Positions 1 through 23,053 of a DNA stretch of 64,000 nt are shown here, one piece after another. The position numbers and the translations under genes are program-made. The DNA comes from Tricharina praecox (taxonomy: Eukaryota). Positions within the stretch are counted from its first letter, which is position 1, and each line of letters opens with the position of its first letter. The notes under the pieces were generated by a model. That model was not told the origin of the DNA. It ran no database searches and saw only the letters and a list, made by a program, of their open reading frames with translations. The DNA is taken from contig NW_026250432.1 of NCBI RefSeq assembly GCF_024521635.1, forward strand, positions 62,001 through 126,000, given 5' to 3'.

Positions 1-2672
1 GCTACGAATATCATGTCCATCGACGAAGCGCATAAGGCTCGGGAGCAGGGGGCGAGCATGCGGAGGCTGTCCTGGGTAACAGTAGGTTCCGCCGGTGAAT
101 GTATTTCCGCAATGACGCTGACGGTTTTCAGTTTATATTTTTACCCCTCCTCTTCGTGGCGGTAAGTGGCCTTGAATGCGAAATTTTACCCATCCGCTAA
201 TAATCATGCTAGAGTTTATACGGTATGAATGTGGGTATTCCGATACACCCCCTCACCCCCTCCGAACAACATTGCTAACCTGTAGATTAGGTGGATGCTA
301 CCGAAAACAACCCAACATGGACGACCTTCTTCTACATCGCCGTACCAGTTTTTACCGTCGTTATGTTGAGTGTGTTGATACTTAAGTTCCGCAAGGGGCT
401 CCGGAGTTTCTTACCCAACCCAGCAATCCGCACGAAACGCAACCAGAATAACGGCGGCGACATAGAGAATCAGAAGGCCGAACTTCACAGCATGAGCATC
501 CCCTTGATCTCAGCGATCGAGCAAGATATGGTCGCCGTCGTCGAGCAGTATCTTGTCGAGCGGAGTGACATCGATAGAGACATTCCCGAACGCGGGAATG
601 CACTACAATGTGCGTTGATTGCGGGAAGTTTGGGTGTGACTACCCTTCTTCTGGAAAAGAAAGCGGATGTCAATGCAGCGCCAGGACCATACCGCGGCGG
701 AAGAACCGCCCTCCAAGCAGCATCGGAAGGACGCCACCTTGAAGTGGTGGATCGACTCTTGGAGAAGGGGGCCGATGTCAACGCAGATCCAGCACGTCAT
801 TCCGGAAGAACCGCCCTACAAGCAGCATCGGAAGGAGGCCACCTTGAAGTGGTGGATCGACTCTTGGAGAAGGGGGCTGATGTCAACGCAGATCCAGCAG
901 GTCATTCCGGAAGAACCGCCCTACAAGCAGCATCGCAAGGAGGCCACCTTGAAGTGGTGGATCGACTCTTGGAGAAGGGGGCCACTGTCAACGCAGCGCC
1001 AGCAAGATTTTCCGGAAGAACCGCCCTACAAGCAGCATCGGAAGGAGGCCACCTTGGAGTGGTGGATCGACTCTTGGAGAAGGGGGCCGATGTCAACGCA
1101 GATCCAGCACATGGTTCCGGAAGAACCGCCCTACAAGCAGCATCGGAAGGAGGCCACCTTGGAGTGGTGGATCGACTCTTGGAGAAGGGGGCCGATGTCA
1201 ACGCAGATCCAGCATTTGATTCCGGAAGAACCGCCCTACAAGCAGCATCGGAAGCAGGCCACCTTGGAGTGGTGGATCGACTCTTGGAGAAGGGGGCCAC
1301 TGTCAACGCAGATCCAGCATTTGATTCCGGAAGAACCGCCCTACAAGCAGCATCGGAAGGAGGCCACCTTGGAGTGGTGGATCGACTCTTGGAGAAGGGG
1401 GCCACTGTCAACGCAGATCCAGCATTTGATTCCGGAAGAACCGCCCTACAAGCAGCATCGGAAGCAGGCCACCTTGAAGTGGTGGATCGACTCTTGGAGG
1501 AGGGGGCCACTGTCAACGCAGATCCAGCAAGTCGTTCCGGAAGAACCGCCCTACAAGCAGCATCGGAAGGAGGCCACCTTGAAGTGGTGGATCGACTCTT
1601 GGAGAAGGGGGCCGATGTCAACGCAGATCCAGCAGGTCATCCCGGAAGAACCGCCCTACAAGCAGCATCGGAAGGAGGCCACCTTGAAGTGGTGGATCGA
1701 CTCTTGGAGAAGGGGGCCGATGTCAACGCAGCGCCATCAGATTGGCACGGAAGAACTGCCCTACAAGCAGCATCGGAAGGAGGCCACCTTGAAGTGGTGG
1801 ATCGACTCTTGGAGAAGGGGGCCACTGTCAACGCAGATCCAGCAGGTGATTCCGGAAGAACCGCCCTACAAGCAGCATCGGAAGGAGGCCACCTTGGAGT
1901 GGTGGATCGACTCTTGGAGAAGGGGGCCGATGTCAACGCAGATCCAGCATATGATTACGGAAGAACCGCCCTACAAGCAGCATCGGAAGGAGGCCACCTT
2001 GGAGTGGTGGATCGACTCTTGGAGGAGGGGGCCACTGTCAACGCAGATCCAGCAAGTCGTTCCGGAAGAACCGCCCTACAAGCAGCATCGGAAGGAGGCC
2101 ACCTTGAAGTGGTGGATCGACTCTTGGAGAAGGGGGCCGATGTCAACGCAGATCCAGCAGGTCATTCCGGAAGAACCGCCCTCCAAGCAGCATCGGAAGG
2201 AGGCCACCTTGGAGTGGTGGATCGACTCTTGGCGATGAGGGCCCGTGTCAACGCAGCACCGGCAGGATGTAGAGGAAGAACAGCCCTACAAGCAGCATCG
2301 GAAGGAGGCCACCTTGGAGTGGTGGATCGACTCTTGGAGAAGGGGGCCGATGTCAACGCAGATCCAGCAGGTGATTCCGGAAGAACCGCCCTACAAGCAG
2401 CATCGCAAGGAGGCCACCTTGAAGTGGTGGATCGACTCTTGGAGAAGGGGGCCGATGTCAACGCAGCGCCAGCATATTGGTACGGAAGAACCGCCCTACA
2501 AGCAGCATCGGAAGGAGGCCACCTTGGAGTGGTGGATCGACTCTTGGAGAAGGGGGCCGATGTCAACGCAGCGCCAGAATCTTATTCCGGAAGAACCGCC
2601 CTACAAACAGCATCGGAAGGAGGCCACCTTAGAGTTGGGGAACGGCTACGTGCAGCAGGCGCAACTGAATAA
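1..2672 (+). CDS. CorA-like TM + ankyrin-repeat protein, paralogue 1 (5' part lies outside the window)
   Basis: Manual splicing of exons 1-81, 132-161, 213-230 and 291-2672 gives ...SIDEAHKAREQGASMRRLSWVT-FIFLPLLFVA-SLYGMN-VDATENNPTWTTFFYIAVPVFTVVMLSVLIL, i.e. a CorA-like TM1-GMN-TM2 module. It is followed by 19 GRTALQAASEGGHLxVVDRLLEKGAxVNA ankyrin units with no internal stop. Confidence 0.88.
660..2669 (+). repeat. Coding tandem array of 19 near-identical 105-bp (35-aa) ankyrin repeats
   Basis: GGAAGAACCGCCCTACAAGCAGCATCGGAAGGAGGCCACCTTG... recurs with a 105-bp period. Loop variants in order: YRG, RHS, GHS, RFS, HGS, FDS, FDS, FDS, SRS, GHP, DWH, GDS, YDY, SRS, GHS, GCR, GDS, YWY, SYS. Confidence 0.97.
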
Positions 2673-3178
2673 GGTAGAAGCCATTCCTGGAATCCACTTT
2701 TTCCTGGTTATTAATACTTATTATGATTGACGACAGATTATGCATGTTTCAGATCGGTTTACGACCGGTTAGCGAGATAGAGCGGGTGTTGGTATTCAGG
2801 ATCATCGTGTCCCGTCGATGGATGACGTACGACGATACATTTGTTTTTTTTTTGTACATGCATGATGGATGTCGATATTTTGCCTGTTATCCTCGATCTA
2901 TTGGTTTCAATTTTCTCTTTCTCTCTAAATGCTTTACTATTGTTGGTAATTCGTTTTGTATCAGGTTGTACTGATACTCCCTCACTGCCGCACTACGTGA
3001 GGAATGGGGTTATTGGTGTCTGGATGTGATACTGTCGGAGATGGATAATGAGGTACTTTGACAAACATTGAGCAAGGCGACGAGTGCTTATTTTCTTCCT
3101 CCGGTGTACGTAGCCCACCTTCGCGGGTATCGTAGTGGCGACATGGTATCATACCTATACATGTTGGGGTTTATTCGT
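2673..3178 (+). repeat. 3' flank of paralogue 1, duplicated at 23054-23559
   Basis: About 500 bp matches the flank after paralogue 4 (offset 20,381). By eye only three substitutions were seen, near 3090, 3133 and 3164. Confidence 0.95.
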
Positions 3179-4603: not shown

Positions 4604-7600
4604 ATGAGCTATCCGGTTCCACCTACGCCGCTGCTCATGCAGGTTTGGATTGGCGATCGTCACTGGAAGATCCATACCAGAGAAGATCTGCAAGAGCTAC
4701 TTTGTGAGGTCGACGCGACGGTATGTAGGCTCATCAGGTGTTTGTCGCTGTATCTATGAGCCTGCTGTCCATCGCTGACAAGCATCGTTTGCAAGGACAA
4801 GCCAGGGCTCTTCAAGTTGGTGCCTCCTCCGACTCTACGGGGTACAAGGCCTGGATCTGTTTTCTAACTCCAATCAGCCTCACACCGGATATCGCAGACT
4901 GGCTATTGGACATGCTGTGCCAGCGGTTCGGGAAGCTGTTGAACCAGTCCAATATACCGACTATTCTGGGGGCAGCGAATGTGAGCCGCCCCGCCGGATC
5001 TTTGGGATCTTTGGGATCTCTGGGATTCTCGGCGGCTCAGGAGAGCTCCTTGTGTGACTGCAAAACATGTTTGGAGAATCGGGGGTCGCCTTGTGATATG
5101 TGCTGGATGACTCCCGGGTATTTCCCCTGTTGAACGTCACTGACGGCGAAGCTCGCGGTTCTTGGATACAAATCCCAGCCTACGAAGAGGTGTCAGTGCA
5201 CGAACAATTGGGCGTTTCGAAACAACCGCCCGAGGGAGGCCACTCCCTATTGGTGGATATCAAGTCTGACGACGAGAAGATGACCTTCTACCCTTCATAG
5301 CAAGCGCCCGACTTTGAAGGCCATCACGCAAAGCTGACGACCGGAAGCCGTACGTTTATTCGGCGAGAACGTTTCGTGTTCTACTGCCTGACCAACGGAG
5401 CTGGCAGACTGTTTTTCTTCAACACACGCTGGAAGAATACCGAAGCCAGCCGCCGACGTACGACTACGCCCGCAGCGCTTCTGGCCAGTTGTCTCAACGA
5501 TGTGTGCGATGACTGGGATAAGCTCATCAAATGCTATCGGCAATTGTTGTCCGACGCGGTGAGTCCTCCGTTGCGTGTTTCGGCGAGCACAATTCTCACG
5601 TCCACGGTAGAGCAAACGTATCCTGAGCGAGGGCGAACTGAACTCTCGACGCTTCATCCGCTCTTTGGTTATTGTTGCCGATAATGCCACCCGACTGGAA
5701 TCTGCACAACACGAGCAGATGCAGAGCATCGAGGCTTTGATGACGAACGGTGGTGGGACGCAGTGGTTTCGACCGCTGGTGAGCAACGTTTGGGGTGAGG
5801 GGAGAGAAGAGTACCTTGGCAATTTAGAAGGCGATGAAGCCAAATTGTGCCGTTCCGATCTCGCGAAAGCAACAGACCGGCTTGCAAAAGTTGGCGAAGC
5901 CATAGAAAGCGGATTGAGTAAGAGGATTGATTTATTGTTTCAGAGGGTATGCCAAACATCCGCACTTCCGCAGGCTTCGTCTAATCTTTCTGCGCGAAGG
6001 CTTCCAATATCGTTTCCATCGACGAGGCATCCAAAGCTGGAGAGCAGAATACTAGTATCAAGAGATTATCCTGGATTACTGTAAACCCATCCACCGCAAC
6101 ACTCTCTTGGACTGGCTAACCATATGAAATGTGGTCAGTTCATTTTCTTGCCGTTGCTTTTCGTATCTGTAGGTTACACTTCGTCCGGAAAAATTTGCGA
6201 ACTGCCATCTAATTGTACGATAGAGTTTATACGGAATGAACGTCGACTTGGTTGCAAACAACCTCAATGGACCACATCTTTCTACATTGCGGCACCAGTG
6301 TTTGCCGGCGTGATGCTGACGGTGATTTTCCTAAAGTACCTACGAGAGCCAAGGCAGAAATTCACCTCGAGGCTTATCCATGCCGTGTCCGAAATCACGA
6401 AACGGTTTCGGTTAGGAAAGTCCAAGAACGCCGACGAAGAAAACCAGGTCACCTCTACGGCCGTAGACCATCGGTATAAAGGATCCTTCTTTCTTGCGCT
6501 GCGCTCAGGACACCGGGTGACAGCCGGAAATCTGCTCGAGGTCGGGGTTGTCGACGGAACCTAGCATGACGGGAGAAAGACGGGTTTGCAATATGCCGCT
6601 GGCTAAGGCTACAGCGATATTGTGGAACGATTGTTGGCGATGGGTGCCGATGTCCACGCGAAGCCTTTTCCGGATGGCGGTAGGACCGCGCTGCAAGCTG
6701 CAGCGGAAGGCGGCCACCTTGCAATAGTGAAGCGACTCCTAGAGCATGCGGCTTACGTCAACACGGCACTGGCACAATGCGATGGACGGACAGCCCTACA
6801 GGCAGGCAGCATCGGAAGGAGGCCATATCGAAGTGGTAAACGAGCTCTTGGAAAATGGGGCCGATGTCAACGCAGCACCAGCGGATCGTGGAGGAAGAAC
6901 AGCCGTGCAGGCGGCATGTGGGAGAGGCCATCTCGCAGTGGTTCGAAGGCTCTTGGAAGAGGGAGCTGAGGTCGCCGCGGCCCCAGCAAGAAGGGGAGGA
7001 TGGACAGCCCTACAGGCTGCATCGGAAAGAGGCCACCTTGAAGTGGTGAATCAACTCTTCGAGAAGGGAACCGAGGTCAACGCACCGCCGGCACAACACG
7101 GCGGAAGAACAGCTCTCCAGGCAGCCTCGGAAGGAGGTCACCTTGAAGTTTTCGAACGGCTGCTGGGAGAGGACGCGGAGGTAGCCGCGGCAGCTGCGGG
7201 AAGGAGAGGGAGAACAGCCCTGCAGGCAGCATCGGGGAGAGGCCACCTTGCAGTGGTAAATCACCTCTTGGCTAACGGCACCGAGGTCAACACAGCCCCA
7301 GCAGAACACCACGGAAGAACAGCCCTACAAGCAGCATCCGAAGGAGGTCACCTTGCAGTAGTCGGGCGGCTCTTGACAAAAGAAGCCGATGTCAACGCAG
7401 CGCCAGCAAAACACGGAAGAACAGCTCTACAGGCAGCATCTGGAGGTGGACATCTTGTAGTAGTCGAGCGGTTGCTGAGGAATGGGGCCACTGTAAACGC
7501 AGATCCAGCGGCTTGCGAAGGAAGAACAGCCCTGCAGGCAGCATCCGGAGGTGGCCACCTTTCAGTAGCGGACCGTCTCTTGGAAAAGGGAGCCGATGTC

Positions 7601-9064
7601 AACGCAGCTCCAGCGGAAGAACTCGGACGGACAGCCCTACACGCCGCATCGGAAGGCGGCCATCTTGCCCTCGTCGAGCGACTCCTGGATAAGGGTGCCG
7701 ATGTCAATACAGAGCCAGCTGGGGATAATGGAAGAACTGCCCTGCAGGCAGCATCGGAAAGAGGGCATCTTGCAATAGTTGACCATCTGCTGGAGAATCG
7801 AGCTGAAGTTCAAGCGGCACCAGCAAGGACGAAAGGAAGAACGGCTCTGCAGGCAGCATCCGAAGGAGGTCATCTTTCGGTGGTGCAACAGCTCCTGGAC
7901 TCGGGGGCCAAAGTTAAAGAATTGCCGTCCAGCTCGGGCAGAACAGCCCTTCAAGCAGCATCGGAAGGAGGTCATCTGGCGGTAGTGAATCACCTCCTGG
8001 TGAACGATGCTGAGGTCAACGCACCGCCAGCGCAACCGGAAGGTCGAACAGCCTTACAAGCAGCTTCGGAAGGAGGCCACCTCGAGGTACTGAACCGACT
8101 CCTGGAGAAGGGGGCCGATGTCAATGCCGCACCCACAGCAGCACGCGGAAGAACAGCTCTACAAGCAGCCTCGGAAAGAGGTCACCTCGAAGTCGTCGGT
8201 CGACTATTGGAGGAGGCGGCCGAAGTCAACGCAACGCCAGCTGAACTTTACGGACGAACGGCTCTCCAGGCTGCGTCTGGAGGAGGCCATCATGCTGTCG
8301 TGGATAAACTCTTGGAGAAGCAGGCCGAAGTCAACGCAGCGCCAGCAAGATGGGGAGGAAGAACGGCTCTACAGGCGGCATCCGGAGGAGGCTATCTTGC
8401 AGTAGTTAATCAACTCTTGGAGAAGCAGGCTGATGTCAACGCAGTGCCGGCGGAATCCAAAAGAAGAACCGCCTGGCAAGCCGCATCGGAAGCAGGCCAT
8501 CTTCGAATAGTGGAGCGGCTCCTGAAGAAGGGGGCTAATGTTAATGCAGCCCCAGCAGGCGACGGCGGACGTACGGCTCTGCAAGCAGCATCGAAAGGAG
8601 GCCATCGCGCGGTAGTTGAGCGGCTTCTCAGAAAGGGAGCCAATGTCAACGCTGCCCCTGCAAACTCCGAAGGACGAACAGCTCTACAGGCAGCATCAGA
8701 AGGAGGCCATGTTACAGTAGTCGAGCGACTCTTGGAGAAGGGGGCCGATGTCGATGCCGCGCCAGCAGAATACGGACGAACTGCGCTACACGCAGCATGC
8801 AAAGGCGGGTATCTTGCCATTGTGGAGCTGCTCATCGTGCACGGGGCTAAAATCAACGCCGCACCCTCGAACGGGGGACGAACGGCGTTACAGGCAGCAT
8901 CGGAAGGAGGCCACCTGGGAGCAGTGAATCGATTGCTAGAGCACGGCGCCGATGCCACTGCTGCGGCAGCAATATATGGCGGGAAAACAGCCCTGCAAGC
9001 AGCGGCGGAAGGAGGCCATAAGGCAGTCGTCGAACGACTGACTGATCGGGGCGCAACCAAGTAA
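4604..9064 (+). pseudogene. CorA-like TM + ankyrin paralogue 2, disrupted
   Basis: ATG at 4604 (MSYPVPPTPLLMQVWIGD) is homologous to the starts of paralogues 3 and 4. FIFLPLLFVS/YGMNVDL module at ~6140-6260, then ~23 divergent ANK units. Lesions: in-frame TAG 6562 (Trp in paralogues), TAA 6604, 4-bp duplication frameshift near 6800-6807, and an apparent GT>AT donor loss at 5096. Confidence 0.82.
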
Positions 9065-10403: not shown

Positions 10404-13400
10404 ATGAGCCATTCGCCGAGCTCTGGTACGCCACCTGTTATGGAGGTGTGGCTGGATGAACGGCTCGTGGAGATTCGTACTAGGGAAGACATGGAAGCAG
10501 CGCTTTCTCAGGTTGATGATTCGGTATGTATAGTACGTGTAAATACGTGGCGACTTGCTACTATCTACTATGTAGTATCTACCGTATATCGCTGATACAC
10601 ATCCTTTATGTAGGAGTTGGACGATAAACTGGTTCTCTTCAAGTGGGTTCCTCGATAGTAAAAACTTATCTAGGTCTACATATGCTGATCAGAAACAGCT
10701 ACTCACAGGACGCTCCACACTGGTTGTTGGACATACTCTACAGACGCTTCGGGGCACTGTTGAACGGATCGCAAATACCGGCGATTTTAGGATCGGCATA
10801 TGTCAGCCGGCGTGGCGAGTCTTTGGGGTTTTCGGCAGGCAGTGGAAGTTCCTCATGTGTCTGTGAACAGTGTTCTGGAGATCCCAAGACCACCTGCGGT
10901 ATGTGCAGGATTGTTTCGGGCATTGGGATACCTACATCGCTCACGAAACAATCCGTGGTTCGTGGGCAAAAATTCCCCACAACTTCAGGTGGCAGTGCCC
11001 GGCGGCCGCGGAGGCAACAGAAGTGTCGCGAAGAAAGAGCGGGAGGCTCTGGGCGCCCGACTGGTAGACATATCGTCAGATGAGAAAACGATTACCTTCT
11101 ATCGTTCAAAGTGAGTTATACTACTATTCAGAAGTCATCCACGATCTGAGCTGACGACAGGTTGGAGACGCCGATTCAGTCGCCGGGAGTGTCTGGTCTT
11201 CTATAGCATTGCCGCCGGTGGTAGACCGTATCACTTCAATCCACGATGAAAGTACTCTGAAAGCCGGACCGGTGCACGTATGCCGCCTACACCTACCTCA
11301 CTTTTGACTTCTTGTCTGAGTGGTGTATGCGATAGTTGGGATACCCTCATCGACTGCTATAAGCAACTGTTGTCCGACGCAGTACGTTTTCCGTTCAAAC
11401 CCGAGTTATGTCGCGGTTTCCACGTTGGCCCCGCTTTGGTCAACGCCGGCGCCGCCAACTAATGATGATTACGATTGCTGAGGTCCAAATTCATATAGAG
11501 CAAACAGATCTTGAGCCAAAGCGAACTGGACTGTCAACTCTTCATTCGATCCTTGGTTACTGTTGCCGACATAGCAACCCGGCTCGAGATCGCGCAGCGG
11601 GAGCAAAGTGGGAGCATTGAGGCCATACTACTAGCCACGGACGGGAGTAGTATGACTCGGAAGTGGTATCCGCCTTCGATGACAAACGAGGGCGCAACGC
11701 AAGAAGTACGGAAGGAGGAGGACCCTAGTAGCGACCTGAACAGAGCACTGGAACAGCTGAAAAATAACGCCGCCGTTGTACAAACGAATTTGAGTGAGAG
11801 GGTTGATGTCTTGATTCAGAGGGTAGCATTGGACGCCCACTCTTCGCAGGGATTCTTCTAATAATCCTGTTCATACTTAGTCGTCCAACATCGTGTCAAT
11901 CGACGAGGCTTGCAAAGTCAGAGAGCAGAACGCCAGCATCAAGAGACTATCATGGATTACCGTAACTTCACCACTGCTCCAATATTCCATGCCTCACTAA
12001 TCATTTCTGTCTATTAGTTCGTCTTCCTGTCGTCTCGGTGGGCCCCTATCTTATACCGGTATATTCGGAAACTTTGAGAGTTGCTTTCTGATCACTGCAA
12101 TTGTATAACAGAGTTTGTACGGGATGAATGTCGACTTGCTTGCAGACAACCCGCAGTGGACCAGCTATTTCTACATCGCCGTACCAGTATTTCTAGCCGT
12201 GATTTTGACCGTGGGTTTCCTAAAGTATCTCCGAGGTCCACTGAGAGAATTCAGCGAGATGTTCTACAACGGTATACCTACGATTTCGCGAATTCAGGGG
12301 GGAAAGTCCAAGATTCCGGATGAGGAAAACCACATTTCTTCCGCAACCGCGGATCCGAGATATAAGGGGCCATTCATCCATGCAATCGGCTCGGGCCATA
12401 GTAGCATGGTTCACGATCTCCTAACCGCCGAAGCTGTGGACATTAATTGGAACGATGGGAAAATGGCGGCATTGCAATATGCAGCAGGCTTTGGAGACGG
12501 TGCAATGGTCGAGCAGCTTTTAGCGATGGGCGCCGATGTACATGCCAACCCACAGCCGAACGGTGGAAGAACGGCTCTTCAGGCAGCATCGGAAGGAGGG
12601 CATCTTGCAATCGTGAAACGGCTCTTGGAGAAGGGGGCCAATGTCAATGCAGCACCTGCAAAATCCGAAGGACGAACAGCCCTGCAGGCGGCATCGGAAG
12701 GAGGCCATATTGCAATAGTAGAGCGGCTCTTGGAGAGAACGGCGGATGTCAATGCGGCCCCTGCAAGATACGGAAGAACGGCCCTCCAAGCAGCAGCTGA
12801 TGGGGGGCACCTCATAGTAGTGGAACGGCTATTGGCGATGGGGGCCCGTGTCAACGCAGCACCGGCAGGATGTAGAGGAAGAACAGCCCTACAAGCAGCA
12901 TCGCAAGGAGGCAACCATGCCGTAGTGGAACTGCTCTTGGATAATGGAGCCAGTGTTAACGTGGCGCCAGCTGAAATCGAAGGACGAACAGCCCTACAAG
13001 CAGCTTCGGAAGGAGGCCATCTTGCGGTAGTGGAACAGCTCTTATTGAAGGGAGCTCATATCAATGCAGCACCAGCACGATCCGAAGGGCGAACAGCGTT
13101 ACAAGCAGCATCGGAAAGAGGCCACCTTTCAGTAATTAAGCGGCTCTTGGAGAATGGGGCCGATGTCAACGCAACACCAGCCGATCGAAAAGGAAGAACA
13201 GCACTACAAGCGGCCTCGCAAGGAAATCACCTCTTGGAGAAGGGGGCGCATGTCAACGCGGAGCCAGCAAAATCAGAAGGACGAACAGCCCTACAGGCTG
13301 CATCGGAAAAAGGCGATCTCGCCATAGTGGAGCGGCTGCTGGAGACAGGAGCGGATGTCAACGCAGCGGCGGCAGAATGGTCGGGAAGAACCGCCCTACA

Positions 13401-14395
13401 AGCAGCATCCGAAAGAGGCAACCTTTTCATTGTAAAGAGACTCTTGGAGAATGAGGGAGATTCCAACGCCGCACCAGTAAAACTCGGAGGACCTGCACTA
13501 CAAGCAGCATCGGAACGAGGCCATCTTGCTGTAGTGAAAAGACTCTCGGAGAAGGGGGCATATGTCAACGCAGCACCTGGAGAATGTAAAGAGGGAACAG
13601 CCCTACAGGCTGCGTCGGAAGGAGGCCACCATGCAGTAGTTGAACAGCTCCTGGAGAGTGGGGCCAATACGAATGCAGCGCCAATAGAATGGTCCGGAAG
13701 AACAGCTCTCCAAGCAGCATCGGGCAGAGGCCATCTTTCGGTGGTGGAGCGACTCTTGGAGAATGACGCCGATGTCAATGCGGCGCCAGCCAGATTCGAC
13801 GGAAGAGCAGCCCTACAAGCAGCGTCGGAAGGAGGTCACCTTGATGTAATGGAGCAACTCTTGGAGAAGGGGGCCGATGTCAATGCCGCACCAGCAGAGT
13901 ACGGGAGAAAAGCTCTATAAGCAGCATCAGAAGGAGGTCATCTTGCGGTAGTGGAGCGGCTTCTGGAGAGTGGAGCCAATATGAATTCAGCGCCGGCGGA
14001 ATGGTCCGGAAGAACCGCCCTCCAAGCAGCATCTGGCGGAGGCCATCTTGCAGTGGTTGACCGACTGTTGGAGAATAGAGTCGGTTTCAAGGCCCCGCCA
14101 GCAAGATTCAACGGAAGGACAGCCCTGCAAGCCGCATCGGCAGGTGGCCATCTTGCGGTGGTGGACCGACTCTTGGATAGGGGGGCGGATGTCAATGCAG
14201 GACCATCAGTCTGAAGAGGAACCGCCCTACAAGCAGCATCATCAGGCGGCCACCTTGTCATAGTGGAGCAGCTCTTGAAGAAGGGAGCCGATGTCAATGC
14301 CATCAGACTGGGGAAATACAGCCTTGCAAGCAGCATTGAAAGGAGACCATCTTGCGGTAGTGGAGCGGTTACGCAAAGCAGGTGCCACAACGTAA
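10404..14395 (+). pseudogene. CorA-like TM + ankyrin paralogue 3, disrupted
   Basis: Start MSHSPSSGTPPVMEVWLD; LYGMNVDLLADNPQWTSYFYIAVPVF module; ~18 divergent ANK units. Lesions: TGA 11247 (Trp in paralogues), shortened TM1 exon near 12020-12040, partial repeat deletion near 13230, TAA 13918 (CAA in other units), TGA 14212 and a frameshift near 14310. Confidence 0.82.
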
Positions 14396-15463: not shown

Positions 15464-18050
15464 TTAGATATCTACATCCATTGCACCCAAGGTTTATATT
15501 CACCAGCTCGTAAGATGTAACATGTTGGACATAAACCCGTATGCTAATCCCGCAAAAACGATAAGTTTATGGATTGGTTTGTGGGCGGGAATGCGGGCAG
15601 CAGCGGGTTAGTAACGATTTGATTGTACCAGCACAATGATTGTCGAGACGATTCGGACGAAAGGGTGGGAATATGGGCAACGGGGGGGCTTAGTAATTGA
15701 TTTCTCGTCTCCGTTTCGTTTCAGTTTTCTACCTGGGCCGAGACTGGGCCCCGGTACCGGCTGCTGCTCGCCCTGTAGATATATACCCTTGGTTCCGAAC
15801 TCTCTTTATGTACCAGTCTCTGGCTTCCTACCAATTCTTCTCAGATATATACCTAATCCTCTTTCGGTGAGCTAACAAGGCCGAGAGGGACATGCGTCGT
15901 CGTCGTCGTCGTCCGGACTCCGGACCGGTTGCCGTGGCAGCGATTCACAGCTTGTGCGTCCGGCTAGTCCAGCACACCAGGTCTCCAAGTCGATATCTGG
16001 TTCATTCGATCGGAGTTTATCCAGGTGCTGGCGGGCTTGTTGGGCGTGCATCGGGCCAGACCCGGAGCCTCGCTGCGCATTCTTCGCACACCTGGCTGCT
16101 TGGGTTTCGGTGAACATGGTGGCTCTTCCCCGCATTCGTCGTTTGACTGTCCCCCACCGCATGCCCTCGCGCTCGCTGCGTGTTGCGCCTCGGAGAGTGG
16201 GTTAGTCCTGCAAAACTCCCGCGCCCGCCGCCGTAGTCCGAGAACATGATTCCAATGGCTCGGTGGGAACAGGACTTTCCCCACGGCATGGAAGTCGATC
16301 TGACAGACCACTGTCAATCCCCCGATAAACGCAGTGGTGCCTCTCGTTGCGGTGGATGCACTAGGTAACTCGAGTCTTGATTTTCGACCGCGAAATAATC
16401 ACCAATAGGTAGTTACCTACTCCATCCTGTTGAAGGGCTTCGACTGGCTACTTCCTAGTAACTCGTGACGCGTTTCTGATGGAAATTGTTGCCCGTGAAT
16501 GTTCCGATCCTGTATGTATGTAACCATGGTGGTCGTGTGCTGGCGGGGGAAAAAGTAACGCTGCAGGCGGAGGGGAGCCCGCCTGCAGCGTTAAAGTAGC
16601 GCACAGGCGCAGGGTCATCCGCGGCAAAGTCGATGTAACCTCTTCTCCGCCCAAGTACTTTGCATCAATAAATCCAAACCCTTCTGCAGTAACCTCTCAT
16701 CACATACCGCAAATCTGATGATTGGAAGCCTATATCGTATGTGCGGCCAACAATCCAACCGGCTCCGTCCCAAGCGGATCTTAACCTCGACACGCTCTCG
16801 ACCTCGTCCCCTCGCAATTTAAAGCGGGAGAACCACTCCACCATGACGAACAACATGGTACCGGAGGTTTACGATGAGTCGATAGAACAGAGGGGCACGA
16901 AGGAGGGTTTGGGGCAGGAGGTCGCGATATTGAGCCGAAGTGAACAGCGGAGGAGAGCCCATTGCCTACACGATGCGACACCCCGTTCACTGATCGCCCA
17001 TGAGTACCTACCATATTCCGCCGCCCTCTCGCACAACAGCCACAGAGTGGAGGGGAAGGGCTTGCAGTGTGACTACACGTTTAGGGCCAGTCACAACATC
17101 TGCAGCTGACGGCCAAACCCGCAAATTCAGACAATCAACAAACAACCAAACGACAGGCACGGACTTCCGCCTCCAAATCGACCGAATGAAAATCGCCGAA
17201 GCGCAGACGAGAAGGAGTGGAAATCGAGCAGGCTTTAGTGATGTTCTGGTAAGTTCGCAAACGACGGGAGGATTCGGAAGGGAGAAGAATATAAAAAAGT
17301 GCGCCGCAGGTCTCGGTACGAGGGGGACAAAAAGTCTCACACATCGGCGCAATTGGGCTTTACGTATTGCGCGCAAGTTGGGAACAGCTGGGTGCTTCAC
17401 GCGTTGAGAACCAGGTATCTACGCCCTTATCATTGTGAGGATACGGTGAACGGCTCACGAGGTGAAGAAACTCGTGTTGTGTTCTCATCCTTGTCCTGCA
17501 TGCCGGCAACTCCGCATTTCCCTCCCTTCCTTCGGACTCCTTCCAATGCCAGAACAGCAAAGTGTTCACGAATTTACAGCCAACAATCAGTCCACCATGT
17601 TACGCTCAAAACTACCTCTTGTTTTATGCAAGAACTGCAGTCTCTCGCGTGCCGAGTGAAGGACTTCGGGAGGTCGTTGGTTGACTTCTGAAGTTCTGAG
17701 TCGGATACGCTGCGGCTGGGTGACACGTCGATAGCCCCACCGGCCAAAAACACCTCTGATAGGCCGGCTTCAGCACGCATGATTCACTTTCATGCTGTTC
17801 AGGTCCCAATCATGAACAAGCCACGGGCGGGCTTAGAAGCACATCCGTGCGTAGGATCTCTCGTCTTTTGCCGTCTCTCCATCTTTCCGTCACAACATTC
17901 ACTTCCCTCCTAATATCGGACGCCCTCGGATTTTGCCTACTCTGTGATCTTGAACTCGAACTTCACTACCTCGCTGCCAGAAGACCACCTATCTTTCGAC
18001 TGCTTGCTCTGTCACCTACAGTGTGCTCTCTCCGGCAAAGCCTTCCGGAA

Positions 18051-21000
18051 ATGAGCCATCCAAACTCGCGCACGCCACCTGTTATGGAGGTATGGCTAGG
18101 CGACCAGCTTTTAGAGATCCATACCCAGAAAGATCTAGAAGGGGCGCTTCGTGAGGTCGACAAGCCGGTATGTATAAGTGCTTGCATAAGTACTTATCGT
18201 CTTGCTGTTCATCGCTGATGCACTCTTTAGGGTTCGCAGGAAACCTTAGTTCTCTTTAAGTGAGTACCTCCTCAATTATGAGTACTAAATCCTGGATGTA
18301 TATACTTACCCAACATAGCTACACTCAGGACGGCCCTGACTGGTTGTTGCACGGACTATTCAGACGTTTCGGAACGGTGATGAGCGACTCCCGAATACCA
18401 GTGAATTTGGTATCGACGTTTGTGAGCCTACGTGACGAGTCTTCGGGGTTCGCGGCAGGGCATAGAAGCTCCTCATGTGCCTGTGAAAAATGTTCTGGCT
18501 ATTCTAAGACCCCTTGTGGTATATACTAGATTGGCTTGGGGTATTGCTCAGGACATCGCTAACTCAACAGTCCGTGGTTCTTGGACAAAATTTCCAGCTT
18601 ACGAAGAGGTGGATTACCCAGAAGAGGTGAGGCTGGACGACAAACATGTTTCCAAAAAACAGCGGAAGGCTCTTGACGCCCAACTGGTACATATCAGTCC
18701 CGATGAGAAGATAATAACATTTTATCATTCAAAGGCAAGCCCAGAAGGCTCTCGCGAAAAGCCGACGATTAAAATGCGCCAATTCATTCGCCGGGAGCAC
18801 CTAGTCTTCTATAGCCTTGCCGTTAGTGACGACCGAGAGTATCACTTCAACCCACGTTGGAAGTACACTGAAAACCGACCCGCGCCTACACCTACACCCA
18901 CAACTCTTCTGACTTCTTGTTTGAACGTTGTTTGCGATGATTGGGACAAGCTCCTCAACTGCTATAAGCAACTGTTGTCCGACGCAGTAAGTGCTCTGTT
19001 ACCTAAGAACTATCTGCAACGGATGAGTTTCTGATGTCCGCGTTAGAGCAAACAGATCTTGAGTCAAAGCGAATTGGATTGTCAACTCTTCATTCGGTCC
19101 TTGGTATCCGTTGCCGATATAGCCACCAGGCTAGAGGTCGCGCAACGGGAGCAATGGGGGAGCATTGAGGCCATGTGCAAAGACGGGAGTATGCCGAAGT
19201 GGCAACGGCGCCTACACAACGAGGACACAACGGCAGAAGTACGAGAAGGGAACTCGATCGAGCTGGGAAGCGACGACGCAACGCGGGTACGAAAAGCAGG
19301 CTCTACCGACTTGGAGAAAGCACATGGACGTCTTAAAGGTCTCGCTGAGATCATAGACACCAATTTAAGCAAGAGAGTTGATGTCTTAATTCAAAGGGTA
19401 TGAAAAGTTCAGCCTAACAAAAGGTTTCTTCCAATAACCTGTGCATAGTCATCCAATATCGTGTCCATCGACGAGGCGTACAAAGCTAGGGAACAGAATG
19501 CGAGCATCAAAAGACTATCATGGATTACAGTAAATTCACCAATCCAATGTCCCCGAGCCTGACTAACCATACGCACTGCCAGTTCATCTTCTTACCATTG
19601 CTATTCGTATCGGTAAGCAACATTACGTCCAGAAAAACTTGGGGAGTCGCTTTTCTGACCGACCAACAGAGCTTGTACGGGATGAACGTCGATTTGCTTG
19701 CAGACAACCCCCAATGGACTACATATTTCTACATTGCGGCACCGGTATTCGCGGGCGTAATGTTAGCGGTGGTTTTCCTAAAGAATGTTCGGAATTCAAA
19801 GCAACCATCCACATCGAGGTTCTTGAAGCCCATGTCGAAACTTATTACAACGGGATTGAGGTTAGGAAGAAAGACACAGATTCCTGACGAGGAAAACCAA
19901 ATACAACCTTCCTCAGCCGTGAACCACAGGTATAGAGTACCATTCGTTCACGCTATCAGCTCACGCCACAGCGGAATTGTTCGGGATCTCTTAAGTACTA
20001 ACGCTGTGGATGTGAACTGGAACGACGGCAAAATGACAGCATTGCAATATGCAGCGAGCTATGGCCACAGTGATAATGTGGAAAAACTTTTAGCAATGGG
20101 CGTTGATGTGAACGCAAGTCCACAAAAGGAGGGTGGAAGGACCACGCTTCAGGCAGCATCGCAAGGAGGCCACCTTGGAGTGGTGGATCGACTCTTGGAG
20201 GAGGGGGCCACTGTCAACGCAGATCCAGCAAGTCGTTCCGGAAGAACCGCCCTACAAGCAGCATCGGAAGGAGGCCACCTTGAAGTGGTGGATCGACTCT
20301 TGGAGAAGGGGGCCGATGTCAACGCAGATCCAGCAGGTCATTCCGGAAGAACCGCCCTCCAAGCAGCATCGGAAGGAGGCCACCTTGGAGTGGTGGATCG
20401 ACTCTTGGAGAAGGGGGCCACTGTCAACGCAGATCCAGCAGGTCATCCCGGAAGAACCGCCCTACAAGCAGCATCGGAAGGAGGCCACCTTGAAGTGGTG
20501 GATCGACTCTTGGAGAAGGGGGCCGATGTCAACGCAGCGCCATCAGATTGGCACGGAAGAACTGCCCTACAAGCAGCATCGGAAGGAGGCCACCTTGAAG
20601 TGGTGGATCGACTCTTGGAGAAGGGGGCCACTGTCAACGCAGATCCAGCAGGTGATTCCGGAAGAACCGCCCTACAAGCAGCATCGGAAGGAGGCCACCT
20701 TGGAGTGGTGGATCGACTCTTGGAGAAGGGGGCCGATGTCAACGCAGATCCAGCATATGATTACGGAAGAACCGCCCTACAAGCAGCATCGGAAGGAGGC
20801 CACCTTGAAGTGGTGGATCGACTCTTGGAGAAGGGGGCCGATGTCAACGCAGCGCCAGCATATTGGTACGGAAGAACCGCCCTACAAGCAGCATCGGAAG
20901 GAGGCCACCTTGAAGTGGTGGATCGACTCTTGGAGAAGGGGGCCACTGTCAACGCAGATCCAGCAGGTCATTCCGGAAGAACCGCCCTACAAGCAGCATC

Positions 21001-23053
21001 GGAAGCAGGCCACCTTGGAGTGGTGGATCGACTCTTGGAGAAGGGGGCCACTGTCAACGCAGCGCCAGTATCTTATTCCGGAAGAACCGCCCTCCAAGCA
21101 GCATCGGAAGGAGGCCACCTTGGAGTGGTGGATCGACTCTTGGAGAAGGGGGCCGATGTCAACGCAGATCCAGCACGTCATTCCGGAAGAACCGCCCTCC
21201 AAGCAGCATCGGAAGGAGGCCACCTTGGAGTGGTGGATCGACTCTTGGAGAAGGGGGCCACTGTCAACGCAGATCCAGCAGGTCATCCCGGAAGAACCGC
21301 CCTACAAGCAGCATCGGAAGGAGGCCACCTTGAAGTGGTGGATCGACTCTTGGAGAAGGGGGCCGATGTCAACGCAGCGCCATCAGATTGGCACGGAAGA
21401 ACTGCCCTACAAGCAGCATCGGAAGGAGGCCACCTTGAAGTGGTGGATCGACTCTTGGAGAAGGGGGCCACTGTCAACGCAGATCCAGCAGGTGATTCCG
21501 GAAGAACCGCCCTACAAGCAGCATCGGAAGGAGGCCACCTTGGAGTGGTGGATCGACTCTTGGAGAAGGGGGCCGATGTCAACGCAGATCCAGCATATGA
21601 TTACGGAAGAACCGCCCTACAAGCAGCATCGGAAGGAGGCCACCTTGAAGTGGTGGATCGACTCTTGGAGAAGGGGGCCGATGTCAACGCAGCGCCAGCA
21701 TATTGGTACGGAAGAACCGCCCTACAAGCAGCATCGGAAGGAGGCCACCTTGAAGTGGTGGATCGACTCTTGGAGAAGGGGGCCACTGTCAACGCAGATC
21801 CAGCAGGTCATTCCGGAAGAACCGCCCTACAAGCAGCATCGGAAGCAGGCCACCTTGGAGTGGTGGATCGACTCTTGGAGGAGGGGGCCACTGTCAACGC
21901 AGCGCCAGTATCTTATTCCGGAAGAACCGCCCTCCAAGCAGCATCGGAAGGAGGCCACCTTGAAGTGGTGGATCGACTCTTGGAGAAGGGGGCCACTGTC
22001 AACGCAGCGCCAGTATCTTATTCCGGAAGAACCGCCCTCCAAGCAGCATCGGAAGGAGGCCACCTTGGAGTGGTGGATCGACTCTTGGAGAAGGGGGCCG
22101 ATGTCAACGCAGATCCAGCAGGTCATTCCGGAAGAACCGCCCTCCAAGCAGCATCGGAAGGAGGCCACCTTGGAGTGGTGGATCGACTCTTGGAGAAGGG
22201 GGCCACTGTCAACGCAGATCCAGCATTTGATTCCGGAAGAACCGCCCTACAAGCAGCATCGGAAGGAGGCCACCTTGGAGTGGTGGATCGACTCTTGGAG
22301 AAGGGGGCCACTGTCAACGCAGATCCAGCATTTGATTCCGGAAGAACCGCCCTACAAGCAGCATCGGAAGGAGGCCACCTTGGAGTGGTGGATCGACTCT
22401 TGGAGAAGGGGGCCGATGTCAACGCAGCGCCAGCATTTTATTCCGGAAGAACCGCCCTACAAACAGCATCGGAAGGAGGCCACCTTGGAGTGGTGGATCG
22501 ACTCTTGGAGAAGGGGGCCACTGTCAACGCAGATCCAGCAGGTCATTCCGGAAGAACCGCCCTCCAAGCAGCATCGGAAGGAGGCCACCTTGGAGTGGTG
22601 GATCGACTCTTGGCGATGAGGGCCCGTGTCAACGCAGCACCGGCAGGATGTAGAGGAAGAACAGCCCTACAAGCAGCATCGGAAGGAGGCCACCTTGGAG
22701 TGGTGGATCGACTCTTGGAGAAGGGGGCCGATGTCAACGCAGATCCAGCAGGTGATTCCGGAAGAACCGCCCTACAAGCAGCATCGCAAGGAGGCCACCT
22801 TGAAGTGGTGGATCGACTCTTGGAGAAGGGGGCCGATGTCAACGCAGCGCCAGCATATTGGTCCGGAAGAACCGCCCTACAAGCAGCATCGGAAGGAGGC
22901 CACCTTGGAGTGGTGGATCGACTCTTGGAGAAGGGGGCCGATGTCAACGCAGATCCAGCAGGTCATTCCGGAAGAACCGCCCTCCAAGCAGCATCGGAAG
23001 GAGGCCACCTTAGAGTTGGGGAACGGCTACGTGCAGCAGGCGCAACTGAATAA
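18051..23053 (+). CDS. CorA-like TM + ankyrin-repeat protein, paralogue 4 (apparently intact, ~1535 aa)
   Basis: Manual exons 18051-18167, 18231-18259, 18319-18518, 18571-18986, 19047-19397, 19449-19529, 19583-19612 and 19670-23053 are all GT-AG and stay in frame. They encode IDEAYKAREQNASIKRLSWIT-FIFLPLLFVS-SLYGMNVDLLADNPQWTTYFYIAAPVFAGVMLAVVFL followed by 28 GRT(A/T)L ankyrin units. Confidence 0.85.
20130..23050 (+). repeat. Coding tandem array of 28 105-bp ankyrin repeats
   Basis: Same consensus as 660-2669. Loop order: KEG, SRS, GHS, GHP, DWH, GDS, YDY, YWY, GHS, SYS, RHS, GHP, DWH, GDS, YDY, YWY, GHS, SYS, SYS, GHS, FDS, FDS, FYS, GHS, GCR, GDS, YWS, GHS. Confidence 0.97.

What the first reader, a model, noticed from the sequence alone, without database searches (positions are those of the whole stretch)
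1..23053. Tandem family of CorA-like membrane proteins fused to hypervariable ankyrin arrays: candidate NOD-less fungal immune or allorecognition receptors
Seen: four same-strand paralogues, each with a Cys-motif/helical N-terminus, then SIDEA..REQ.AS.(K/R)RLSW(I/V)T-FIFLPL.FV.SLYGMNV..NP.W..FYIA.PVF, then 18-28 ANK units. No P-loop (NACHT/NB-ARC) motif was seen in the reconstructed copy 4. Established: GMN between two TM helices is the signature of CorA/Mrs2/Alr1 pentameric channels. Internally homogenised repeat arrays with hypervariable surface residues are the hallmark of fungal NLR sensor domains (e.g. Podospora HET-E/HET-D WD40 arrays). CorA-family proteins serve as membrane effectors in some bacterial type III CRISPR systems. 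Inference: with CorA topology the ANK array is cytosolic, so ligand binding could gate or assemble a pore directly, giving a one-component sensor-executioner that evolves by birth and death.
Basis: partly seen in the sequence, partly recalled or inferred. Interest (0 to 1): 0.9.

Follow-up and report, generated by a model that had tools for sequence, protein, structure and literature searches.

The report
CorA-like fungal genes with hypervariable ankyrins
A soil fungus carries a tandem cluster of genes that join a magnesium-channel-type membrane module to a long, fast-diversifying ankyrin-repeat tail, which looks like a receptor for variable ligands, though its function is untested.

Summary
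Four + strand paralogues lie at 1-23053. Copy 4 (18051-23053) is an eight-exon gene. All seven of its introns are bridged, or in one case supported by a loose end, in contigs of one public run. The spliced product is 1535 aa. It has an N-terminal region of no known family, then a stalk-TM1-YGMN-TM2 module, a basic linker and 28 ANK units of 35 aa.

The TM module matches a CorA profile I built from 27 PF01544-positive bacterial proteins: 43-45 bits against at most 5.8 for shuffles, and hhalign probability 97-98%. Homology of the N-terminal domain to CorA is not shown. There is no P-loop.

Only copies 1 and 4 have homogenised arrays (91-92% nt). These two arrays form one pool and share identical units and a 3' flank. 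Variation sits at unit positions 30 and 32-35, in the inter-repeat loop, where dN/dS is about 4 against 0.5 elsewhere. Copies 2 and 3 are pseudogenes with ordinary, diverged arrays.

Twenty-nine metagenome loci show the same gene family. In 2 of 5 between-sample pairs the arrays are hypervariable.

An immune or allorecognition role, and gating by the array, remain untested inference. I rate this a new variant of known kinds, with interest about 0.68.

The parts
1..2672 (+). Copy 1, with its 5' end cut by the window edge. Exons: 1-81 (..SIDEAHKAREQGASMRRLSWVT), 132-161 (FIFLPLLFVA), 213-230 (SLYGMN), 291-2672 (VDATENNPTWTT-TM2-linker-array-stop). Open throughout. Its linker is of a different subtype from copies 2-4.
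   Evidence: The in-script splice gives 836 aa with 0 stops. The TM1-GMN part scores 26 bits against my CorA HMM.
699..2669 (+). Homogenised ANK array of copy 1: 18 full 105-nt units plus a 27-aa terminal cap.
   Evidence: TRF gives 18.4 copies, 92% matches and 0 indels. Units are listed. Units are shared with copy 4.
2673..3178 (+). 3' flank shared by copy 1 and copy 4 (pairs with 23054-23559).
   Evidence: blastn of 2560-3178 against 22941-23559 gives 98.2% over 619 nt.
4604..9064 (+). Copy 2, a pseudogene of the copy-4 subtype. Lesions: a 1-nt frameshift at 6262 between SLYGMNVDLVANN and PQWTT, stops at 6562-6564 and 6604-6606, and a frame change near 6784-6790. The array ORF 6743-9064 is open but diverged.
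   Evidence: TRF gives 66-73%.
10404..14395 (+). Copy 3, a pseudogene of the copy-4 subtype. Lesions: a stop at 11247-11249 (FNPR*KY), a TM1 exon degenerated to LLVRLPVVSVG (12011-12043), array stops at 13918-13920 and 14212-14214, and a frameshift before the cap ..KAGATT*.
   Evidence: TRF gives 68-75%.
18051..23053 (+). Copy 4, an intact gene of 1535 aa. Exons: 18051-18167, 18231-18259, 18319-18518, 18571-18986, 19047-19397, 19449-19529, 19583-19612, 19670-23053.
   Evidence: The DNA was read. GT..AG joints in X2 contigs cover six introns, and a loose end supports 18987-19046. The spliced ORF has no stop.
18627..18734 (+). Optional in-frame intron inside exon 4 (108 nt, 36 aa). Both the spliced and the unspliced forms appear in X2 contigs.
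   Evidence: joint 18624->18733 (cut +2), and contig 10 covers 18598-18762 unspliced.
18476..18517 (+). CxCxxCx7C motif of the N-terminal region. It is also present in copy 2 (5053-5094) and copy 3 (10856-10897).
19365..19810 (+). CorA-type module, aa 360-449 of the spliced protein: end of the stalk helix, TM1 (about aa 394-410), YGMN (aa 411-414), an acidic loop and TM2 (about aa 425-448). It is interrupted by introns 19398-19448, 19530-19582 and 19613-19669.
   Evidence: hmmsearch gives 43.2 bits, aa 360-443 against HMM 234-317 of 325. hhalign local gives aa 359-449. Hydropathy finds only two TM segments.
19811..20134 (+). Basic linker, modelled with low confidence, followed by diverged capping ANK repeats.
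   Evidence: AF2 pLDDT is below 50 for residues 38-120 of exon 8, with helix pairs from residue 124. Pfam ANK hits start near residue 154 of the ORF piece.
20135..23050 (+). Homogenised ANK array of copy 4: 27 full 105-nt units plus a 27-aa cap. Units 3-9 (20345-21079) recur as units 11-17 (21185-21919) with 1 mismatch.
   Evidence: TRF gives 27.4 copies, 91% matches and 0 indels.
23054..23559 (+). 3' flank shared with copy 1.

Best explanation
This is a tandem cluster, evolving by birth and death, of a fungal gene family. Each protein has three parts.
1. A fast-evolving N-terminal cytosolic region of about 360 aa, with no known family and a CxCxxCx7C motif.
2. A strongly conserved CorA-superfamily membrane module: stalk end, TM1, YGMN, a short acidic outer loop and TM2.
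3. A cytosolic C-terminal solenoid of 35-aa ankyrin repeats.

Two genes are alive (copy 1 and copy 4). Their arrays are kept nearly identical by concerted evolution within and between the two loci. Five loop positions per unit are diversified.

Shown: the anatomy; joined (spliced) contigs in run X2, whose RNA label is the tool's guess; homology of the TM module to CorA; the absence of a NOD; the pattern of variation; and the existence of the family, with array differences between samples, in other fungi.

Inferred: the protein assembles like CorA into an oligomeric cation pore. The ANK solenoid is a binding surface for variable ligands, either non-self or modified self. Ligand binding changes pore activity, so that recognition and membrane output lie in one polypeptide without a nucleotide-binding switch.
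For: Gene model and joined contigs:
- Contigs of run X2 join across the predicted introns with GT..AG ends.
- The spliced ORF is 1535 aa with no stop.

CorA module:
- It scores 43.2 bits (E 1e-15 at Z=1) over HMM positions 234-317 of 325. The HMM was built from 27 ORFs that pass the PF01544 cut-off.
- The best of 200 shuffles scores 4.9 bits, and the best of 500 zone-preserving shuffles 5.8 against 44.7 for the real segment.
- hhalign gives 96.6% for the single sequence and 97.8% for a 7-sequence family alignment.
- The module is the most conserved part among the 29 metagenome relatives. Exon 6 is 72-95% identical in 25 of the 26 loci where it is found (44% in L131), and exon 7 80-90%. Exon 5 is only 32-63%.
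- YGMN is kept in 18 of the 29 loci. Six others end before that region.

Topology: the 25 aa after TM2 hold 6 K/R and no D/E. The loop holds 2 D and no K/R.

Arrays (45 full units):
- 20 of 35 positions are invariant. Entropy is concentrated at positions 30 and 32-35, plus dimorphic positions 15 and 26.
- Nei-Gojobori dN/dS is 4.1 at the five hypervariable codons and 0.48 at the other 28.
- In the AF2 model these positions fall in the inter-repeat loop just before G1-R2-T3.
- Mean unit distance within arrays (8.2-8.3 of 105) equals that between arrays (8.1). Identical units occur in both genes.
- The array and 506 nt of 3' flank are shared at 98.2%. The TM and linker parts are 75% over 78 nt or not alignable.

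Relatives:
- They carry the same 35-aa unit, and positions 30-35 hold 55% of within-array entropy.
- In 2 of 5 pairs of near-identical loci from different samples the arrays differ 20-45 times more than the flanks: 73/669 against 20/8449, and 63/1104 against 24/8366. One of these pairs also differs by about 7 units in length.

Precedents:
- High-internal-conservation ANK repeats in fungal NLRs (PMC4986451).
- A CorA-like PF01544 gene is a candidate vegetative-incompatibility gene in Morchella importuna, with its allelic differences concentrated at the C-terminus (PMC8940278, section 15 read).
Against: - There is no functional datum of any kind.
- The N-terminal 359 aa show no significant similarity to the CorA cytoplasmic domain. 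hhalign gives E 0.2-0.26, and the score of 15.2 lies inside the column-shuffle range (mean 13.1, max 17.4, n=20).
- The AF2 model of exon 4 is poor (pLDDT 59) and finds nothing in the PDB.
- Pfam's own PF01544 model could only be run on unspliced fragments. It gave 10.8 bits (E 0.3), below the cut-off of 27.
- Canonical CorA proteins end a few residues after TM2 (recalled). This one carries about 1090 more, and whether a pentamer tolerates that is untested.
- In 3 of 5 between-sample pairs the arrays showed no excess variation.
- Arrays this repetitive are hard to assemble. The 735-nt near-perfect duplication in copy 4 and the metagenome array differences could be partly assembly artefacts.
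- dN/dS among recombining repeat units is only a rough measure.
- Half the cluster is dead, so the family is not under uniform constraint.
Confidence: 0.45

Rival explanations
1. It is an ordinary divalent-cation (Mg2+/Zn2+-type) transporter. The ankyrin tail would be a regulatory or anchoring domain, for example a cytoskeletal tether like the long ANK arrays of some TRP channels. Repeat homogeneity would be a neutral by-product of unequal crossing-over.
For: YGMN and the TM module are conserved. Published genome papers annotate such genes as transporters. [quoted passage not shown] P0005, a relative of the copy-1 subtype, has the same TM2-ANK order with ordinary diverged repeats. In 3 of 5 between-sample pairs the arrays show no excess variation.
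Against: Variation is not spread evenly, as neutral turnover would predict. Five of 35 codons carry 62% of the nonsynonymous differences (2110 of 3417), with dN/dS 4.1 against 0.48. The same positions vary in the relatives. Housekeeping transporters do not usually sit in clusters that are half pseudogenes and exchange arrays between diverged paralogues.
Confidence: 0.25
2. It is a membrane-anchored ankyrin adaptor. The CorA-like helices would serve only as an oligomeric anchor that displays ANK solenoids at a membrane, with no ion conduction. Output would go through partners bound by the N-terminal region.
For: The N-terminal region is not detectably CorA-like. It evolves fast, with exon 5 only 32-63% identical among relatives. 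One paralogue in the relatives (L126/L129) has YGMD instead of YGMN.
Against: YGMN and the FLPL.F helix, which form the pore signature of CorA (established knowledge), are the best-conserved residues of the whole protein. A mere anchor would not need them. The YGMD locus L126 also carries a frameshift in its array, so it may be decaying.
Confidence: 0.12
3. It is a decaying or artefactual repeat cluster. The homogenised arrays would be recent neutral expansions or assembly artefacts in genes on their way to pseudogenisation.
For: Two of the four copies are already pseudogenes. The 735-nt near-identical block in copy 4 is the kind of feature that assemblers can create. Short-read contigs of runs X1, X3 and X4 break at the start of the array.
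Against: Copy 4 keeps a 4.6-kb spliced ORF without a stop. X2 contigs join across its introns. Copy 1 is open over all 836 aa that can be seen. Synonymous variation is nearly absent outside the hypervariable codons, which is not what decay would leave.
Confidence: 0.06

Closest known systems
CorA / Mrs2 / Alr1 / ZntB superfamily (Pfam PF01544)
   Same: Both have two C-terminal TM helices with YGMN at the end of TM1, preceded by a long helix. There is a significant profile match over about 90 aa. The inferred topology is N-in/C-in.
   Different: The N-terminal domain is not detectably homologous. There is no MPEL-type loop motif (recalled feature of bacterial CorA). About 1090 aa of linker and ANK follow TM2, where canonical members have only a few residues (recalled). 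The gene family is clustered, rich in pseudogenes and fast-evolving.
[quoted passage not shown] 2014, PMC4986451)
   Same: Both have C-terminal repeat arrays more than 85% identical internally. Both have hypervariable positions in the beta-hairpin/loop region, show repeat exchange between paralogues, and show length and sequence differences between strains (seen here in relatives) (paper passages).
   Different: There is no NACHT or NB-ARC domain and no known death or effector domain. A CorA-type membrane module stands in their place. The unit is 35 aa, against the 33-34 reported for NLR ANK repeats.
mimpvic32 of Morchella importuna (PMC8940278)
   Same: It is a fungal CorA-like (PF01544) protein with many introns (8). 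It is a candidate vegetative-incompatibility gene from bulk segregant analysis, and its allelic differences are concentrated in the C-terminal region (section 15 read).
   Different: It is 765-773 aa, and the text I read reports no ANK repeats. It is a candidate only, without functional proof. I could not compare sequences, because the record is not in the collections at hand.
[quoted passage not shown]
   Same: It has the same domain combination, noted in passing by its authors (one passage read).
   Different: It is interpreted as a metal transporter. Nothing is said about repeat homogeneity or hypervariability.
Type III CRISPR-associated CorA effectors activated by SAM-AMP (PMC10600005; listing and start of abstract seen)
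   Same: A CorA-family membrane protein is used as the output arm of an immune system.
   Different: The system is bacterial and has separate components. The sensor is a separate Cas10 complex, and the activating signal is a small molecule that binds the CorA effector. No ANK is involved.
Plant ANK-TM proteins ACD6 and Lr14a (PMC7878491) and animal TRP channels with long ANK arrays
   Same: Ankyrin repeats are fused to a membrane, channel-like domain. Lr14a confers race-specific resistance, and its authors proposed that it may act as a Ca2+-permeable channel (passages read).
   Different: The ANK repeats are N-terminal to a multi-TM domain that is unrelated to CorA. Their repeats are not reported as internally homogenised. 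The TRP comparison is recalled and was not tested.

Membership tests
CorA superfamily (PF01544) | Two C-terminal TM helices with the (Y/F)GMN motif at the end of the first. | tested here: met
   The spliced copy 4 has hydrophobic segments only at aa 394-418 and 425-448, with YGMN at aa 411. The exons joining them are bridged by X2 contigs. The motif is also present in copies 1 and 2.
CorA superfamily (PF01544) | A significant profile match to family members. | tested here: met
   My own HMM, built from 27 ORFs that pass the PF01544 cut-off, gives 43.2 bits over aa 360-443. Shuffles score at most 4.9 and 5.8 bits. hhalign gives 96.6-97.8%. Caveat: Pfam's own model could be run only on unspliced fragments, where it gave 10.8 bits, E 0.3.
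CorA superfamily (PF01544) | An N-terminal cytoplasmic alpha/beta/alpha domain with a helical funnel. | tested here: inconclusive
   The N-part alone gives hhalign E 0.2-0.26, and its score lies within the shuffle range. HMMER and hhalign both pick the same collinear helix region, but without significance. AF2 of exon 4 has pLDDT 59, and Foldseek finds nothing.
CorA superfamily (PF01544) | Homopentameric pore; divalent-cation transport. | not testable with these tools
   The fold and complex tools take only unspliced window translations, and the module is split over three exons.
Fungal NLR (STAND) receptors | A central NACHT or NB-ARC nucleotide-binding domain with a Walker A motif. | tested here: not met
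   No [GA]xxxxGK[ST] motif occurs in the 1535-aa product. No such Pfam hit occurs on any exon ORF.
Fungal NLR (STAND) receptors | A C-terminal ANK, TPR or WD array with high internal conservation (at least 85% over at least 100 aa). | tested here: met
   Copies 1 and 4 show 91-92% nt matches over 1.9 and 2.9 kb, and 20 of 35 aa positions are invariant. The criterion is not met by copies 2 and 3.
Fungal NLR (STAND) receptors | Hypervariable positions on the binding surface under diversifying selection; concerted evolution between paralogues; repeat-number polymorphism. | tested here: met
   dN/dS is 4.1 against 0.48. The positions map to the inter-repeat loop. Copies 1 and 4 share units and a flank. 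Length and sequence differences between samples were seen only in relatives, in 2 of 5 pairs. This was not tested for the window's own arrays.
Ankyrin repeat (PF00023 / PF12796) | A match over Pfam's cut-off. | tested here: met
   Ank_2 scores 60-72 bits against a cut-off of 27.3 on three copies. AF2 models helix pairs with pLDDT 85-95.

The most novel reading that the evidence does not exclude
This would be a one-polypeptide sensor-executioner of fungal non-self recognition. A CorA-type pentameric cation pore would have its opening controlled directly by five cytosolic, hypervariable ankyrin solenoids. The pore would replace both the NOD switch and the death domain of NLRs. The repertoire would be renewed by repeat shuffling between live paralogues and neighbouring pseudogene arrays. 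One odd unit shared by copies 1 and 4 is closest to a unit of pseudogene copy 3 (91 of 105 nt).
Probability: 0.25. Interest if true: 0.9.

Novelty: new variant of a known kind. Interest (0 to 1): 0.68.

Why it matters
Fungal innate-immunity and allorecognition genes known so far are mostly NLR-type proteins. In these, a nucleotide-binding switch couples a hypervariable repeat sensor to a separate effector domain.

Here the same kind of sensor is wired directly to a channel-type membrane module. It shows internally homogenised repeats, diversified loop residues and exchange between paralogues. If the array controls the pore, this is the simplest possible receptor-effector design. It would also be a eukaryotic counterpart of the bacterial use of CorA proteins as immune effectors.

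There is a practical point as well. Expansions of 'CorA magnesium transporters' have been reported in fungal genome papers (for example PMC10694956 and PMC3897900; passages read). Some of these may be recognition genes rather than nutrient transporters. The Morchella incompatibility candidate (PMC8940278) makes this directly testable.

Tried and rejected
- **Homologue searches for full-length annotated relatives failed.** The search for homologous proteins with exon 4 plus flanks, lengths 'longer', found none. With exon 8 residues 1-115 it found one hit, P0005, an ORF that starts at the last exon. With exon 5, 'longer', it found none.
- **The exhaustive HMMER search with exon 4** gave 3 hits. 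One was real (P0006, an 87-aa exon-sized ORF). Two were spurious repeat proteins.
- **The ESM Atlas** gave no usable hit.
- **No whole genome is held** for this window.
- **The search of earlier findings** returned nothing in three look-ups.
- **No RNA holder was listed** by the look-up of sequencing runs. Run X2 is labelled RNA only as a guess. Its contigs skip the introns, which is what I report. Contig depth was not used as a measure of expression.
- **Pfam on single exons** gave ANK only. CorA reached E 0.3. Intergenic ORFs and exons 1 and 3 gave nothing.
- **AF2 of exon 4** with a 7-row alignment gave pLDDT 59. Foldseek against the PDB gave no match at E <= 0.001. This is not evidence either way.
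- **The search for related loci in genome contigs** with E. coli CorA and ZntB returned only 92-100% identical enterobacterial corA genes. These loci were not used for the HMM. One of them, L077, gave the genome handle.
- **hhalign in forced global mode** covered all of CorA. I discarded that as an effect of the mode, and local mode was used instead.
- **Technical failures.** A script timed out. A first ORF filter kept only 15 of 32 CorA loci and was redone to give 27. A first family filter kept only copy 4 and was redone. The megablast part printed nothing and was redone with blastn.
- **The genome search on the metagenome loci** was not possible, because the records are not held.
- **Read-through ORFs across the TM-module introns** were looked for in the relatives, so that Pfam could be run on unaltered sequence. 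None exists, because the acceptor TAG is an in-frame stop.
- **The apparent 1.9-kb array insertion in L141 against L140** is not array sequence.
- **The in-frame stops of copies 2 and 3 at the end of the segment matching the optional intron** (5298-5300; FYRSK*) were first counted as lesions. I dropped them, because they may lie in an intron.
- **Complex prediction was not used.** The TM module cannot be supplied unspliced.
- **RIP as the source of variation** was rejected. There are 23 transitions against 39 transversions.

Full report
**What the window is.** It comes from a fungus. Genes carry many 50-60-nt GT..AG introns. The part from 24 to 64 kb encodes housekeeping proteins: ORC3, Sec1, Vta1, PP2C, NPL4, Nop52, a SNF2 helicase, a PX/Vps5 protein and a NUDIX protein. 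The finding occupies the first 23 kb.

**The observation.** Four paralogues lie head to tail on the + strand.

I read the DNA of copy 4 and derived an eight-exon model that starts at ATG 18051. I then laid the contigs of four public runs on 17900-20200.
- Run X2 is labelled RNA only as a guess. Its contigs join across 18168-18230, 18260-18318, 18519-18570, 19398-19448, 19530-19582 and 19613-19669, all with GT..AG ends.
- A 13-letter loose end of one contig equals the end of exon 4, which supports intron 18987-19046.
- An extra, optional in-frame intron (18627-18734) appears in both spliced and unspliced contigs.
- Three soil-metagenome DNA runs hold near-identical sequence.

Joined by coordinates inside a script, the product is 1535 aa with no internal stop.

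**Anatomy of copy 4.**
- Residues 1-359 match no Pfam family when scanned exon by exon. They carry a CxCxxCx7C motif that copies 2 and 3 share.
- Hydropathy finds only two membrane segments, aa 394-418 and 425-448, with YGMN at aa 411.
- There is no Walker A motif.
- After TM2 comes a basic stretch with six K/R and no acidic residue in 25 aa. The loop between the helices has two Asp and no K/R. By the positive-inside rule, both termini, and so the array, face the cytosol.
- AF2 models the next 80 aa or so with low confidence, then diverged capping repeats, then regular helix pairs with pLDDT 85-95.
- From aa 564 there are 27 full units of exactly 35 aa and a 27-aa cap.

**Is the membrane module CorA?** The tools take only unspliced window translations, and the module is split over three exons. 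Pfam's own model therefore saw fragments only, and PF01544 reached 10.8 bits, E 0.3. No annotated full-length homologue could be found to stand in.

I therefore built a profile of my own.
- The genome search with PF01544 over 61 genomes of one bacterial phylum found matches in 44, of which 43 passed the cut-off.
- From 32 loci (30 of these plus E. coli corA and zntB) I extracted 27 ORFs and built an HMM.
- The spliced copy 4 scores 43.2 bits over aa 360-443 against HMM positions 234-317 of 325. That region is the stalk end, TM1, GMN and TM2.
- The best of 200 whole-sequence shuffles scores 4.9 bits.
- The best of 500 shuffles that keep the local composition of stalk, TM1 and TM2 scores 5.8 bits, against 44.7 for the real segment.
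- hhalign in local mode gives probability 96.6% (E 6.5e-10) for aa 359-449.
- It gives 97.8% (E 8.5e-13) with a 7-sequence family alignment.

The N-terminal part alone is not significant. Its E value is 0.2-0.26, and its score of 15.2 compares with a mean of 13.1 and a maximum of 17.4 for 20 column shuffles. HMMER and hhalign do pick the same collinear helix region. AF2 on exon 4 was poor, and Foldseek found nothing.

So the pore-forming module belongs to the CorA superfamily by sequence. The fold of the rest, and the pentamer, remain open.

**The arrays.** Tandem Repeats Finder gives a 105-nt period with 92% matches for copy 1 and 91% for copy 4, with no indels. Copies 2 and 3 give 66-75%.
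- Among the 45 full units of copies 1 and 4, 20 of 35 residues never vary.
- Entropy is concentrated at positions 30 and 32-35. Positions 15 (G/E) and 26 (D/T) are dimorphic. Third codon positions hardly vary.
- Among the 32 distinct units, Nei-Gojobori dN/dS is 4.1 at the five hypervariable codons and 0.48 at the other 28. This is a rough figure, because the units recombine.
- Transversions outnumber transitions 39 to 23, so the pattern is not RIP-like.
- In the AF2 model the unit's helices are at positions 4-11 and 14-22. The hypervariable residues therefore sit in the inter-repeat loop just before the G-R-T start of the next unit. By established knowledge of ANK complexes, and in the Podospora NLR analysis (PMC4986451), that loop region is the usual binding surface.

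**Concerted evolution between two diverged genes.**
- Mean unit distance is 8.2-8.3 of 105 within each array and 8.1 between them.
- Units c1.10-12 equal c4.4-6, and c1.15-16 equal c4.24-25.
- Units 3-9 of copy 4 recur as units 11-17 with one mismatch.
- The arrays and 506 nt of 3' flank are shared (98.2% over 619 nt). Upstream, the two genes align only over 78 nt at 75%.
- Their linkers are about 37% identical in protein.

Copy 1 is thus a different subtype that shares its array with copy 4.

**Two of the four copies are dead.**
- Copy 2 has a 1-nt frameshift at 6262, right after the YGMN motif, two stops in the linker, and a further frame change.
- Copy 3 has a stop replacing the W of FNPRWKY, a degenerate TM1 exon, two stops in the array and a frameshift before its cap.
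- Both also carry stops at the end of the segment that matches the optional intron. I do not count those stops as lesions.

**Relatives.** A scan of metagenome contigs used the conserved end of exon 4.
- It matched 119 stretches, of which 29 were confirmed, from four samples.
- The confirmed loci have the same exon order.
- 18 of the 29 have YGMN. Six end before that region, two read YGMD, and three are truncated copies.
- 20 of the 29 have the ANK motif downstream.
- Several contigs hold two members.
- The unit is again 35 aa (GRTALQAASEGGHL.VVDRLLEKGA.VNAEA....).
- Internal identity runs from 0.75 to 0.905.
- Positions 30-35 carry 55% of within-array entropy. Positions 1-6, 8 and 9 were fixed by my search pattern.
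- The TM module is the most conserved part of the protein. Exon 6 is 72-95% identical in 25 of the 26 loci where it is found (44% in L131). Exon 5 is 32-63%.

I compared five pairs of near-identical loci from different samples, with flanks 99.1-99.8% identical.
- In two pairs the arrays differ far more than the flanks. L133/L134 shows 73/669 against 20/8449. L126/L129 shows 63/1104 against 24/8366, plus about seven units of length.
- In three pairs there is no excess: 4/2415, 0/735 and 3/735.
- Assembly error in repeats cannot be excluded.

**Literature.** Six searches for the combination found no paper that treats a CorA-ANK protein as a receptor.
- A CorA-like PF01544 gene, mimpvic32, is one of two candidate vegetative-incompatibility genes in Morchella importuna. 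Its allelic differences are concentrated at the C-terminus (PMC8940278, section 15).
[quoted passage not shown] That leaves a minority elsewhere, which the text I read does not describe (PMC4986451, section 13).
- CorA-family effectors of type III CRISPR systems are in print (PMC10600005, listing and start of abstract).

**Verdict.** The anatomy is solid. The reading as a NOD-less, membrane-resident recognition receptor fits all the sequence evidence and has one published hint in its favour. No step from ligand binding to output has been shown. I rate it a new variant of known kinds, namely the CorA superfamily and fungal hypervariable-repeat receptors. It is of clear interest to fungal immunity research and is directly testable.

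Noticed in passing
window 18627-18734: There is an optional in-frame 108-nt intron inside exon 4 of copy 4. Both spliced and unspliced contigs occur in run X2. In copies 2 and 3, and in many metagenome relatives, the matching segment ends in a stop. It may therefore be a constitutive intron in those genes.
   Followed up: partly
window 22550-22654 and 2169-2273, compared with 12772-12876: One odd unit (..LLAMRARVNAAPAGCR) is identical in copies 1 and 4. It differs from every other homogenised unit by at least 14 of 105 nt. It matches a unit of pseudogene copy 3 at 91 of 105, while other units reach at most 86. It may be an old positional homologue or a patch taken from a pseudogene array.
   Followed up: partly
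window 20345-21079 and 21185-21919: A seven-unit block is repeated within copy 4 with a single mismatch in 735 nt. It is either a very recent duplication or an assembly artefact. Short-read contigs cannot decide between the two.
   Followed up: no
window 18891-19223 and 19438-19477 (run X3 and X1 contigs): One soil-metagenome contig differs at 12 clustered places (18921-18957). Other contigs match only about 40 nt at the start of exon 6 and then run on unlike the window. This suggests further paralogues or divergent alleles outside the window.
   Followed up: no
window 24358-64000: The cluster abuts a block of conserved housekeeping genes: ORC3, Sec1, Vta1, PP2C, NPL4, Nop52, DUF2417, SNF2 helicase, PX/Vps5 and NUDIX. 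It is therefore not in an obviously gene-poor or transposon-rich region. No Pfam domain was found in the ORFs between the copies.
   Followed up: partly
L126 / L129 (about 7917-8027): One metagenome paralogue reads SLYGMDVNAL, that is GMD instead of GMN. L126 also carries a frameshift in its array. It may be a decaying copy or a non-conducting variant.
   Followed up: no
G003, G027, G031, G039, G035: Five bacterial genomes have open frames of 567-602 aa that match only positions 209-288 of PF01544, which is the TM module. These look like bacterial proteins that also join a CorA-type membrane module to some other large domain.
   Followed up: no
window arrays 699-2669 and 20135-23050: About 5 kb of repeats that are 91-95% identical persist within 20 kb. 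Their differences are mostly transversions. Repeat-induced point mutation therefore seems inactive on them.
   Followed up: partly
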